From NCBI RefSeq assembly GCF_009914755.1, contig NC_060934.1: a stretch of DNA of 64,000 nt. The stretch is one strand, 5' to 3'. The notes under the pieces were generated by a model. That model was not told where the DNA came from. It ran no database searches and worked only from the letters and a program-made list of their open reading frames with translations. Position numbers and translations under genes: made by a program. Positions 27,801 through 49,420 of the stretch are shown piece by piece. Within the stretch, counting starts at the first letter, position 1; the number at the start of each line of letters is the position of its first letter. This DNA is from the human T2T-CHM13v2.0 reference genome, Homo sapiens.

Positions 27801-27894
27801 AGCTGCTTTTGCCTAGAGTACAGCAATGGGTTTAGAGCTTGTAACAACTTGTTAAAATTAAACATCCCAATATTGCCTGATTTCCTACTTTACA
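27801..27894 (-). pseudogene. SELENOOLP: SelO-like exon, 5'-truncated (CKVGNQA / -1 fs / NIGMFNFNKLLQALNPLLYSRQKQL)
   Basis: GTGAGT donor; aligns to YdiU [23 protein letters not shown]; the expected NxSD 5' portion is not visible next to the Alu. Confidence 0.83.
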
Positions 27895-27904
27895 TTGGAA
27901 ATTA

Positions 27905-28835
27905 TTATATTTATTTATTTATTTATTTATTTATTTATTTATTCTGAGACAAGTTCTTGCTCTGTCACCCAGGCTGGAATGCAGTGGCATGATCCCAGCT
28001 CACTGTCACCTCCATCTTCCAGGCTCTAGTGATCCTCCCGCCTCAGCCTCCCAAGTAGCTGGGAGACCACAGGCATGTACTACCATGCCCAGCTAATTTT
28101 TTAAATTATCTGTAGAGACAGGGTCTCCCTGTGTTGCTCAGGCTGGTCTTGAACTCCTGACCTGAAGGGATCCTCCTGCCTCAGCCTCCAAAAGTGCTGG
28201 AATTACAGGCATGAGCCACTGCCCCCAGCCACAGCAAGGATAATTATAATAAATAGCTTCTTTCTTTGTTTATAAGCTTATATTTAAACATATGAATCTG
28301 TAATTATTAGATAAAAATCTTTCTGGCATTATTTAAGTTGAAGGTAATAGAATACACTAAAAGCTTTTAAAACATGAACATTTGTCTAATAGAGAAATCT
28401 ATTTCTATCCTGTAGGAATTTCCAGTCTATCACATATGACTTCAATCTCCAACTCAATAGCATGTCCTCCGCAACACCTCTGATCTCTCCAGTGCCAATA
28501 CTGGATTTCTGTTACCTCCATTTCATATATTAGTGGAGTGAGAGGTTAAGTAACTTTCCAAAGGCACAGAGCTATTAAGGGTCAGATGCGAAACTCAAAA
28601 TCTCACCTGTTTGACAACATGTTTCCTGGTATACCTCATGCCATCTTCTCCAGCATTTACTGGATTTTGATTTGGATTTTTTTTTTTAAAGACAGGGTCC
28701 CGCTCGGTCACCCAGGCTGGAGGGCAATGGCACCACTGTAACTCACTGCAGCCTCAAACTCCTAATCTAAAGAGTTCCTCCTGCCTTGGCCTCCCAAAGT
28801 GCTGGGATTACAGGCGCTAACCAGCATGCCCGGTC
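27905..28835 (-). mobile_element. AluJ (27905-28230) and FLAM-like monomer (28675-28835)
   Basis: Antisense Alu motifs. Confidence 0.88.
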
Positions 28836-29068
28836 CTTATAATATGTATTCTCTGAGGGCAGAGACGATAAAGGGCTCATCGTTGTATCACTTAATGGCA
28901 CCCACAAGATCTGGTAGGCACATAGAAATGACCATTTTATAAACGAACCCAATTCTTTCTACTACCCCGTCACTGTGTTATCTATAGCAGTTTACCTGAG
29001 ATAACTTGTGATGATATTTTAATGAAATAAGGTGTGTATGTATGCACACATACACAAATTGTACATAC

Positions 29069-47234: not shown

Positions 47235-47355
47235 CAATATGGCAAGAAAATATCTTCTAGGGTAGCTAACACTCCAACATCAATACGACAGCCTTGATCG
47301 CTTTCAGTTACACATAGGCCATTTTGATCCATCTGTACTGGCTCTTTTCATTTGT
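47235..47355 (-). pseudogene. Possible N-terminal SelO-like exon remnant (MDQNGLCVTESDQGCRIDVGVLATLE)
   Basis: Non-repeat, protein-like frame after a pyrimidine-rich ...GCCCTTAG, between the CpG island and the first clear exon. Resembles my recollection of mammalian SelO-like N-termini; the donor is not identifiable. Confidence 0.4.
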
Positions 47356-48939
47356 CTAAGGGCAGCAAAATAGACTAAAGTTGTTTTCAGACTGCACAAG
47401 AGAAGTCCGTTCTTTAGCAGTTACCTGCACAACTCATATAATGTTTTTAACTTCCTCAACTCATGCTTGGCCTAGTTGGGTCAAAAGAACTACTTGTGAA
47501 TTCCGCATGTCCAATTGGTAGCTTACTGTTTTTTCTTAAGAGTTTAGCTATACAGTAATGTTGGAAGTCTTGAGGAACTTCAACTGCTGTCCCTACTTAG
47601 CCTTGCAATACTACAGCATCTTTTTTCTTTTTTTTTAAAGACAGAGTCTCGCTTTGTCACCTAGGCTGGAGCACAGTGGCACCATCTCGGCTCACTGCAA
47701 CCTCTGCCTCTCAGGTTCAAGTGATTCTCCTGCCTCAGCCTCCCAAGTAGCTGGAATTACAGAACATGCACCACCACGCCCAGCTAATTTTTGTATATTT
47801 AGTGGAGACAGGGTTTCACCATGTTAGCCAGGCTGGTCTCAAACTCCTGACCTCAAGTGATCCACCTGCCTCGGCCTCCCAAAATGCTGGGATGACAGGG
47901 GTGAGCTACCGTGCCGAGCCTACAGCATCTTTTTAAGAGCAATGTTTTCTGTTTTAATGTGGCCAAGCAATCTCTAAATGAAAATGGTTTGACAAAATTG
48001 TGCAGTGCCATACTTGCCAAAACTATGTGAGCTTGAGTGTGATACTTACTTGACAATACAGTATTTCCTCTATATGTTTCCTTATCTTTTTTTTTTTTTA
48101 GGAGCAAATGATAACGTCTTAGTCCTAGGATTGTCAAGTACAACCCGAGTGCTTATTGCTACACTCTACTTGGCAAATTCTACCTGTTGAATGTTTCTTA
48201 ATATATAAACATAATCTCTACCAAGATAAGCTACAGGTGCATATTAACAATCTTCACTCATAAAGGTCTTTGCATATTTTTACATACTATTCTTCAAGAT
48301 GGAAAAAACACCATCAAACTGGCTTATTTTCATAGATGTCTTTATACAGTCTATGAGGTCTTTATTCCATTAAAAAAACACACGATTAAATATAAAATTA
48401 ATGTACCCAGCTATCAAGCTACCGCATTCTTTAACACAAGGTGTGGTTCAGAAGAACGAGAAAATACATGAATCAGAGAACTGTAATTACCTACTTGTTT
48501 GTCTATTTCCTCACTAGAGTGAATTTTTTGAGGACTAAACTGCATTTCTGTATCTCTAATGCTTACCCTCTATCTCACTGACTCTGTGTGTTTGAGTGCA
48601 TGCGCCGAATGCTTAACTATATCACTTAATTTCTGTTAGGTACACGCTGTCTCTCAGCACCAGAACAGCACCCGTAGATCTGGCCTTAGAGCTAAGGAAA
48701 GAAGGCCTTTCCAATCGATAAGGGGTACTAATCCTGTACAGACTCTGATATCTCCCGGGCTGGGTACACGCAGGTTCACACCCAGGTGTGAGCAAGATTG
48801 CCAAACTATACCTATAAGGTGTTCGGAGGAGAGAGTCCAAAAGTCGAGAGACCAGGCTAAGTTAGTTAATTTCACAATAGCCCTGATCGTGGTGGGACTT
48901 GTTCCCAGGAAGATGGGATGGGCTGAAACTTCCTTCAAG

Positions 48940-49420
48940 AACAGGTTGTGAAAGGCAGCCGACCACGGCGTAGCAGGTCACTGCCAAGGGAAGCAGAAGC
49001 GGAAACCCTCGCCTCTGGCTTAGGCTGCGGAGCGGGAACCCGATTCTCTGAGTCATGTTTCTACCTAAACACGCAAAACAAGAGTTAGTGGCTGCAAGGG
49101 TGGCGCGCGGTGCTATTTCTTGCTAATAAATGGTCCCCACTGGGACATTTTTGCTGTGACTGCAGGCTTGGCCAGTCTCCCTGCACGGATTCTGGGAAGG
49201 GGGGCGGATAGGAGGCTAGCCCCTGGGAAGGTCACTCTCGGGGTCCCCGGGCCTGGCCTCCGCGCGCCCCTGCCCCGCCGCCTCCAGGGAGCCGCCGCAG
49301 TCCCCACTGGCTGCGGACGGGCAGGCGCCTGAGGTCTCCGCGCTGGCAGCCTGGCCGCACGCGGGGAGGAGCGAACCGCCGCCCCAGGCGTGGCCAAAGC
49401 GTCGCTTCTGTCTCCTCAGA
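48940..49420 (-). promoter_or_regulatory. CpG island, probable promoter / first exon of the SelO-like pseudogene
   Basis: Dense CpG/GC stretch (GGCGCGCGG, CCGCGCGCCCC, GGGGCGG boxes) in an AT-rich background, located 5' of all minus-strand SelO-like exons. Confidence 0.7.

What the first reader, a model, noticed from the sequence alone, without database searches (positions are those of the whole stretch)
27801..49420. Hidden multi-exon SelO/YdiU AMPylase paralogue, dead in this lineage but reconstructable
Seen: nine short minus-strand exons here plus a terminal exon at 4.5 kb, nearly all missed by the ORF track. They have canonical or recognisably damaged splice sites and compatible phases, and spell YGGHQ|FGIWADQLTDGRAH...|WELQLKGSGRTPYSR ... 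SWFRVGSLE ... GVFNTDN...YGPF ... GNQANIGMFN. Known: these are the motifs of the SelO pseudokinase family, which binds ATP in a flipped orientation and AMPylates proteins. Inferred: a second vertebrate SelO-type AMPylase, distinct from SELENOO and little characterised, was lost on the lineage leading to this genome.
Basis: partly seen in the sequence, partly recalled or inferred. Interest (0 to 1): 0.85.

Follow-up and report, generated by a model that had tools for sequence, protein, structure and literature searches.

The report
Duplicated relic of lost SelO-like gene
The exons are real remains of a second SelO-type enzyme gene that primates lost, but that loss was published in 2012, the human relic already has a name (SELENOOLP), and this window holds only a partial, unannotated duplicate of it.

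Summary
Observation confirmed. The minus strand of 27801-49056 carries ten decayed exons, and 4460-4582 carries a terminal exon. They match intact mammalian 'SelO-like' proteins at 76-77% identity (200-204 of 264 positions), against 37% for human SELENOO. Eight of 10 acceptors and 8 of 10 donors are canonical.

Interpretation partly supported and not new. This is the Cys-ending paralogue that Dudkiewicz et al. 2012 (PMC3281104) named SELO2 and reported missing from primates. RefSeq names the human relic SELENOOLP, about 26 kb past the window's end.

The window copy is a segmental duplicate of exons 1-12. It aligns with the copy beside PDSS1 over 17.8 kb, K2P 0.073. The 4.5-kb terminal exon belongs to an older duplicon and is now the last exon of LINC03028.

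The window copy cannot be rebuilt alone, because the exons for about aa 208-262 and 412-552 are absent. A deletion of the exons for aa 412 to about 510 and a +1 frameshift in exon 10 are shared between copies, so the gene died before the duplications.

Further partial copies lie at chr10:26.98 and 27.35 Mb, and a decayed retrocopy lies on chr9. Exons 4-5 were found as genomic exons only in the window copy. Interest is low.

The parts
49057..49401 (-). Copy of the 5' flank and promoter region of the relic gene, up to the duplication boundary at 49401
   Evidence: GC 0.67, CpG o/e 0.72. Homology with the PDSS1-side copy ends at 49401 = 124648, which is 84 bp from the annotated PDSS1 start (hub table).
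48812..49056 (-). Exon 1 relic. ATG intact at 49056. A 2-bp deletion shifts the frame near codon 65. GT donor present.
   Evidence: tblastn aa 1-86, E 3e-17. Alignment with copy B2 shows the 2-bp gap. Splice site read.
44401..44519 (-). Exon 2 relic. Open frame, with AG acceptor and GT donor.
   Evidence: 79% identity to Tupaia aa 82-123, E 6e-14. Splice sites read.
44015..44129 (-). Exon 3 relic. The 5' end and acceptor are replaced by an Alu-like sequence (Alu identity judged by eye and recall), with a +1 T insertion and CGA>TGA just before YGGHQ. GT donor present.
   Evidence: The same exon in copy B2 is open.
37865..37929 (-). Exon 4 relic (FGIWADQLTDGRAH...). Open, AG and GT present.
   Evidence: 82% identity to aa 167-188. 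Splice sites. Apart from the chr9 retrocopy, no other match to these codons was listed in the assembly.
37728..37785 (-). Exon 5 relic (GEKWELQLKGSGRTPYSR). AG acceptor present. The donor was lost at a deletion junction that joins the exon to the middle of an interspersed repeat.
   Evidence: 90% identity to aa 188-207. Pfam SelO 20.5 bits. Junction read.
35126..35213 (-). Exon 8 relic (GAVVLCAAESWFRVGSLE...). Open, AG and GT present.
   Evidence: 83% identity to aa 263-292. Pfam SelO E 0.12-0.16. Splice sites.
32330..32399 (-). Exon 9 relic. AG acceptor present. Donor GT mutated to GG; copy B2 keeps GT.
30530..30605 (-). Exon 10 relic. A +2 insertion in the first T run is private to this copy. 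A +1 T near the 3' end is shared with copy B2. AG and GT present.
   Evidence: 76 nt here and 74 nt in B2, against 73 nt expected from the orthologues.
29069..29152 (-). Exon 11 relic (GVFNTDN...IHYGPFAF). Open, AG and GT present. The Asp of the orthologues' 'IDYGPFGF' motif is His here.
   Evidence: Pfam SelO 27.2-27.7 bits, above the 22.8 cut-off. Also.
27801..27892 (-). Exon 12 relic. The 5' part and acceptor were removed by a deletion of about 70 bp, and there is a 1-bp deletion. GTGAGT donor present.
4460..4582 (-). Terminal coding exon relic (copy T1) in a different, older duplicon. The Cys of the C-terminal Cxx motif is kept and the stop codon is lost. It coincides with the last exon of LINC03028 (4421-4582).
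   Evidence: 73% identity to aa 550-590, E 9e-15. AG acceptor at 4584-4583. K2P 0.15 to the SELENOOLP terminal exon region.
62720..62827 (-). Second copy of the terminal exon (T2), ending GCSS + stop, inside an exon of LOC102724202.
   Evidence: K2P 0.080 to the T1 region.
25028..49401 (.). Extent of the duplicated block (B1) that carries exons 1-12.
   Evidence: Collinear blastn blocks with 103802-124648. 17,807 aligned bases, p = 0.0695, K2P 0.073.

Best explanation
The window holds a non-functional, partial, segmentally duplicated copy of the human relic of SELO2. NCBI calls intact orthologues of this gene 'protein adenylyltransferase SelO-like', and the human relic is SELENOOLP. SELO2 is the Cys-ending, ancient metazoan paralogue of SELENOO.

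Likely history (the order of events is inferred):
1. An intact multi-exon gene lay head-to-head with PDSS1.
2. Its mRNA was retrocopied to chr9.
3. The gene was inactivated in the primate stem. The lesions include a deletion of the exons for aa 412 to about 510 and a +1 frameshift in exon 10.
4. The 3' terminal-exon segment was duplicated (K2P 0.15).
5. A large duplication (K2P about 0.07) produced the window unit (T1, FAM238A, B1) beside the PDSS1-side unit (T2, FAM238B, SELENOOLP, B2).
6. Further inverted copies went to 26.98 and 27.35 Mb.
7. Each copy then collected its own stops, frameshifts and deletions.

No protein is made from the window copy. Its surviving splice signals are reused by lncRNAs: the terminal-exon acceptor is the LINC03028 exon boundary.
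For: Identity:
- The relic matches Tupaia, colugo and cat SelO-like proteins at 75-80%, SELENOO at 33-37% and E. coli SelO at 34% (264 positions for the window copy, 299 for B2).
- In an ML tree of 26 rows, B1 and B2 are sisters (100) inside the placental SelO-like clade (100), far from SELENOO.
- The terminal exon ends Cxx + stop in T3 and T2, as the 2012 paper describes for SELO2.

Duplication:
- B1 25028-49401 is collinear with 103802-124648, K2P 0.073 over 17,807 bases.
- T1-T2 is 0.080, FAM238A-B is 0.071, and T1/T2-T3 is 0.15.
- B1's 5' end is joined at 49401|49409 to the start of another unit copy, and regD (the 27.35-Mb copy) shares that junction.
- Only the PDSS1-side copy continues into the exons for about aa 511-592.

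Death before duplication:
- No exon for aa 412-505 was found in either copy.
- The interval that must hold those exons (106581 down to 103141) is collinear in single blastn blocks with B1, with window 49409-51493 and with regD.
- Exon 10 carries one extra T in both copies.
- At 94 positions that are at least 95% conserved in 59 intact orthologues, 4 changes are shared, 2 positions differ in both copies, and 8 changes are private to each copy.
- The shared stem in the tree is 0.144 substitutions per site.

Other copies: genome-wide search and tblastn.

Published loss: PMC3281104.
Against: - Most disabling lesions are private, not shared. Private to B1: the 2-bp deletion in E1, the +1 and stop in E3, the E9 donor, the +2 in E10, the truncation of E12. 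Private to B2: ATG>ATA, stops in E1, E2 and E11, loss of E4-E5.
- Exons 6-7 were removed by two different deletions, so part of the decay clearly followed the duplication.
- The one shared frameshift lies in a T run, where the same slip could recur.
- Some of the 8 changes counted as private to B2 lie in read-through at an exon edge.
- I could not see any non-human genome. The position beside PDSS1 in other mammals, and which primates lack the gene, are therefore untested.
- The tree does not resolve where within placentals the relic sits (supports 33-45).
- Transcription of the window copy was not tested.
Confidence: 0.9

Rival explanations
1. One reading: one hidden gene of nine exons plus a terminal exon at 4.5 kb forms a single ancestral locus in this window that died in place.
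For: All pieces are on the minus strand in the right order with compatible phases.
Against: - The body (25-49.4 kb) and the terminal exon (4.5 kb) belong to duplicons of different age. K2P to their SELENOOLP-side counterparts is 0.073 against 0.15.
- Between them lie FAM238-type tandem repeats and none of the exons for about aa 412-552.
- The copy beside PDSS1 is the one that continues into the exons for about aa 511-592.
Confidence: 0.05
2. The duplication came first. A working gene was duplicated and both copies then died independently.
For: Nearly all stops, frameshifts and the exon 6-7 deletions are private to one copy.
Against: - Shared absence of the aa 412-510 exons across a collinear interval in three copies.
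- Shared +1 in exon 10.
- Shared replacements at conserved sites.
- Long shared stem in the tree.
Confidence: 0.07
3. The window holds a recent DNA-level or retroposed copy of SELENOO itself.
For: SelO Pfam hits.
Against: - 33-37% identity to SELENOO.
- Introns are present.
- Exon structure differs. SELENOO exon 1 (aa 1-185) corresponds to relic exons 1-5, and SELENOO exon 4 is split between relic exons 10 and 11.
- The C-terminus has Cys, not a TGA-encoded Sec.
Confidence: 0.01

Closest known systems
SELENOOLP (RefSeq transcribed pseudogene, 89675-102797 in window coordinates, outside the window)
   Same: Same ancestral gene. Its span holds the penultimate exon (94307-94396) and the terminal exon (91026-91145).
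   Different: The annotated span covers only the 3' part. The window copy is a paralogous duplicate of exons 1-12 and carries no annotation. The twelve-exon body next to SELENOOLP (103.8-124.6 kb) also lies outside the annotated span.
SELO2 of Dudkiewicz et al. 2012 (PMC3281104), which NCBI names 'protein adenylyltransferase SelO-like' or 'YdiU-like' in other vertebrates
   Same: Cxx C-terminus, about 40% identity to SELENOO, placement inside that clade, and reported as missing from primates.
   Different: The paper reports absence, not the relic or its duplicated copies. It also says the gene is missing from rodents, yet the protein search returned squirrel and marmot entries.
Human SELENOO (chr22; rebuilt here as 9 exons, 669 aa, TGA at codon 667)
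   Same: Same Pfam family. Shared motifs GHQFG, LKGxG, NTDN and DYGPFGF.
   Different: Selenoprotein, different exon structure, 33-37% identity to the relic.
Fish SELENOO2 (Mariotti 2012, PMC3316567; bioRxiv 10.1101/2025.05.29.656587)
   Same: Similar name only.
   Different: It is a Sec-containing, teleost-specific duplicate of SELENOO (passages read), not this paralogue.

Membership tests
SelO/YdiU (Pfam PF02696) | Match to the family profile above the gathering score | tested here: met
   The exon 11 piece scores 27.2-27.7 bits against a cut-off of 22.8. E5 scores 20.5 and E8 11.1-11.5, in collinear profile order. Six of 9 window pieces gave no hit because they are short. The spliced product could not be handed to the tool.
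SelO/YdiU (Pfam PF02696) | Active-site motifs intact (HGV-NTDN loop, DYGPFGF; their catalytic roles are recalled from the SelO literature, not tested here) | tested here: not met
   In the window copy NTDN is kept, but the preceding His codon lies in a shifted frame and the Asp of the DYG motif is His. Copy B2 has a stop at the Tyr of that motif.
SELO2 / 'SelO-like' clade | Closer to SELO2 orthologues than to SELENOO | tested here: met
   75-80% against 33-37% identity. Falls inside the placental clade with support 100.
SELO2 / 'SelO-like' clade | C-terminal Cxx with Cys, not Sec | tested here: met
   T3 ends SCLS + stop and T2 ends GCSS + stop. T1 (window, 4.5 kb) keeps the Cys but has lost the stop.
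SELO2 / 'SelO-like' clade | Orthologous position beside PDSS1 in other vertebrates | not testable with these tools
   No vertebrate genome other than this assembly was on hand.
Functional protein-coding gene | Open reading frame across all exons | tested here: not met
   Frameshifts in E1, E3, E10 and E12, a stop in E3, two lost acceptors, two lost donors, and missing exons.
Segmental duplication | At least 1 kb at 90% identity or more to another place in the genome | tested here: met
   17.8 kb at 93% identity, counting substitutions only, to 103.8-124.6 kb. 88-91% identity to the blocks at 26.98 and 27.35 Mb.
Processed pseudogene | Intronless, collinear with the mRNA | tested here: not met
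   The window copy keeps its introns and splice sites. The chr9 copy does fit this definition.

The most novel reading that the evidence does not exclude
Two bolder readings remain open.

First, the duplicated relic may not be inert. Its CpG-rich promoter copy (49057-49401, CpG o/e 0.72 after a divergence of about 7%) and its preserved splice sites may seed primate-specific lncRNAs (LINC03028, LOC102724202).

Second, the enzyme that primates lost may have been a secretory-pathway SelO-type AMPylase rather than a mitochondrial one. Intact orthologues begin with a hydrophobic, signal-like segment followed by N-x-S sites (read by eye; no predictor was run).
Probability: 0.15. Interest if true: 0.45.

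Novelty: already known. Interest (0 to 1): 0.2.

Why it matters
This is mostly a matter of annotation. RefSeq's SELENOOLP covers only the 3' end of the relic. The twelve-exon body beside it, the window's duplicate, two further partial copies and a chr9 retrocopy carry no SELENOOLP-related label in the table I was given.

The window copy is the only place in this assembly where exons 4-5 (the GHQ|FG...GDGRA and LKGSG region) were found as genomic exons. Anyone tracing the gene's death through primates would need that copy.

The biological point has been in print since 2012: humans lack a second SelO-type AMPylase that colugos, tree shrews, squirrels, carnivores and ungulates keep. My library searches found no functional study of that paralogue: 'SELENOOLP', 'selenoprotein O-like'/'SELENOOL'/'SelO-like', and 'SELO2' with 'pseudokinase'/'AMPylation'.

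Tried and rejected
- Protein-database search with the exon 11 ORF: 3 candidates, none scored.
- The same search with exon 1 of the window copy: 238 candidates, none at E <= 1. So no primate protein with this N-terminus turned up. This is weak evidence, because the tool relies on shared 5-residue words.
I used single-exon pieces instead. A coordinate slip was also corrected.
- ORF-against-ORF blastp between the SELENOO locus and the region: swamped by Alu and low-complexity matches, and abandoned for tblastn with rebuilt or fetched proteins.
- Searches for the exons of aa 205-265 and 408-560 at loose thresholds: only chance-level hits.
- The weak chr14 SelO hit (E 3.84): not reproduced with either protein, so treated as noise.
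- No structure, complex or representative-library jobs were run, because nothing hinged on them.
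Full report
**What is there.** Pfam SelO (PF02696) matches the exon 11 ORF above its cut-off (27.2 bits against 22.8) and exon 8 weakly. A six-frame search of the whole assembly with PF02696 finds SELENOO on chr22, two chr10 sites (one in the window, one 79 kb further on) and a chr9 site.

A protein search with the penultimate exon of the neighbouring copy returned 134 proteins at E <= 1 among 141 candidates (120 listed). Those carrying a source name are labelled 'protein adenylyltransferase SelO-like', 'YdiU-like' or similar. 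They come from colugos, tree shrew, squirrels, carnivores, ungulates, bats, afrotherians, reptiles, birds, frogs, fishes, a tunicate and corals. No primate name appears among the 120.

With the tree-shrew protein (P0030, 592 aa, Pfam SelO 397 bits), tblastn maps eleven relic exons in the window:
- E1 49056-48812
- E2 44519-44401
- E3 44129-44015
- E4 37929-37865
- E5 37785-37728
- E8 35213-35126
- E9 32399-32330
- E10 30605-30530
- E11 29152-29069
- E12 27892-27801
- terminal exon 4582-4460

Read directly, 8 of 10 acceptors are AG and 8 of 10 donors are GT.

**Which SelO.** I rebuilt SELENOO from chr22: 9 exons, 669 aa, TGA at codon 667. At positions aligned in all five reference proteins:
- The window relic is 76%, 77% and 75% identical to tree shrew, colugo and cat SelO-like (200, 204 and 198 of 264), 37% to SELENOO and 34% to E. 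coli SelO.
- The neighbouring copy gives 79%, 80%, 78%, 33% and 34% of 299.

SELENOO's first exon (aa 1-185) corresponds to five relic exons, and its fourth exon is split in the relic. The terminal exon ends SCLS + stop or GCSS + stop in two copies, so it carries Cys, not Sec. An ML tree (LG+G4, 26 rows, relics read through with X at stops) puts both chr10 copies together (100) inside the placental SelO-like clade (100), far from SELENOO. Placement within placentals is unresolved (33-45). This is an old paralogue, not a SELENOO copy.

**Already in print.** Dudkiewicz et al. 2012 (PMC3281104; passages read) state four things:
- Metazoa ancestrally had two SELO genes.
- The second, 'SELO2', is not a selenoprotein and usually ends Cxx.
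- It is present in chicken, dog, horse and cow.
[quoted passage not shown] The hub's table lists SELENOOLP at 89675-102797. 'SELENOOLP' occurs in one paper of the library, a TCGA expression list (listing only).

**How the window copy relates to SELENOOLP.** I fetched 80 kb around the window. Self-comparison shows that 25028-49401 is collinear with 103802-124648, which ends 84 bp from the annotated PDSS1 start. Over 17,807 aligned bases, p = 0.0695 and K2P = 0.073.

The PDSS1-side copy (B2) carries E1-E3 and E8-E12. It then continues into an exon for about aa 511-526 (103067-103141), the penultimate exon (94307-94396) and the terminal exon T3 (91026-91145). The last two lie inside the SELENOOLP span.

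The window has no counterpart of the two middle exons. Its terminal exon T1 sits in another duplicon:
- T1-T2 K2P is 0.080.
- T1-T3 is 0.150 and T2-T3 is 0.147.
- FAM238A-FAM238B is 0.071.

T1's acceptor (AG 4584-4583) is exactly the LINC03028 exon boundary at 4582. T2 lies in a LOC102724202 exon. The window body is a truncated duplicate whose 5' end is fused at 49401|49409 to the start of another unit copy.

**More copies.** A genome-wide search with P0030 (a stricter first look, so the counts are a floor) found the following:
- E1-E3 on the plus strand at chr10:27350169-27355689.
- A terminal exon plus E2-E3 at chr10:26978408-26986875. These blocks are 88-91% identical to the window, and the 27.35-Mb copy shares the 49401|49409 junction.
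- An intronless, heavily decayed copy at chr9:111200671-111202627 covering aa 12-587. It includes the parts absent from every chr10 copy, is 75-94% identical per exon fragment at the DNA level, and has a tree branch of 1.10.

**When it died.** Most lesions are private:
- Window copy: 2-bp deletion in E1; +1 and CGA>TGA in E3, plus loss of its 5' end; E9 donor GG; +2 in E10; a deletion of about 70 bp and a 1-bp deletion in E12.
- B2: ATG>ATA and a stop in E1; stops in E2 and E11; loss of E4-E5.
- Exons 6-7 were removed by two different deletions. In the window, E5 is fused to the middle of an interspersed repeat that is complete further upstream in B2.

Three things are shared:
- No exon for aa 412-505 exists in either copy. 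The interval that must contain them is collinear, in single blastn blocks, with B1, with window 49409-51493 and with the 27.35-Mb copy.
- Exon 10 has one extra T in both copies: 74 nt in B2 and 76 nt in B1, against 73 nt expected.
- At 94 positions that are at least 95% conserved among 59 intact orthologues, 4 changes are shared, 2 positions differ in both copies, and 8 changes are private to each copy. Some of the B2-private ones are read-through at an exon edge.

The shared stem in the tree is 0.144, against terminal branches of 0.19 and 0.13. I infer that the gene was already dead before the duplications. I also infer that this was after the split from colugos and tree shrews, which have full-length proteins. 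By recalled human-macaque divergence (about 6-6.5%), the K2P 0.07 event would fall near or before the catarrhine radiation. This date is an inference.

**Verdict.** This is a real relic, correctly recognised as a SelO paralogue. But the loss is published and the relic is named, and the window copy is a partial duplicate that cannot be rebuilt on its own.

What is new is small. The annotated pseudogene is only the 3' end of a relic that segmental duplication spread to at least four chr10 sites and retroposition to chr9. Exons 4-5 were found as genomic exons only in the window copy.

Untested here: synteny in other mammals, the state of the locus in other primates, and transcription of the window copy.

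Noticed in passing
G000 chr9:111200671-111202627, minus strand (L022 about 4671-6627): Intronless, heavily decayed retrocopy of the same SelO-like gene, covering aa 12-587. It includes the regions (aa 208-262, 412-510) that no chr10 copy retains, and keeps the ancestral residues at two of the four positions changed in both chr10 copies.
   Followed up: partly
G000 chr10:26978408-26986875 (L025-L026) and chr10:27350169-27355689 (L029): Further inverted segmental-duplication copies carrying a terminal exon plus E2-E3, and E1-E3. They are 88-91% identical to the window, and the second shares the window's 49401|49409 junction.
   Followed up: partly
window 4421-4582 and 62627-62838: The last exon of LINC03028 begins exactly at the relic terminal-exon acceptor. 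The second copy of that exon lies inside an exon of LOC102724202. These lncRNAs reuse the dead gene's splice signals.
   Followed up: partly
window 49057-49401: The copy of the relic's promoter flank is still CpG-rich (GC 0.67, CpG o/e 0.72), while the sequence beyond the duplication boundary is not (GC 0.41, o/e 0.31). It may still be unmethylated or active.
   Followed up: no
window about 6100-16100, and 65000-75400 beyond the window: Many mutually similar blocks (about 0.7-3.5 kb, 76-91% identity) that look like arrays of tandem repeats around FAM238A and FAM238B.
   Followed up: no
proteins P0019, P0021, P0022: Squirrels and a marmot have 'SelO-like' proteins, although the 2012 paper says SELO2 is missing from rodents. 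The rodent loss would then be lineage-specific.
   Followed up: no
proteins P0011, P0012, P0030, P0083, N-termini: Intact orthologues start with a hydrophobic, signal-like stretch followed by N-x-S sites, unlike mitochondrial SELENOO. Read by eye only; no predictor was run.
   Followed up: no
G000 chr14:32066426-32066563 (L009, L023): Weak PF02696 hit (E 3.84) that neither the SelO-like protein nor SELENOO reproduced. Probably chance.
   Followed up: yes
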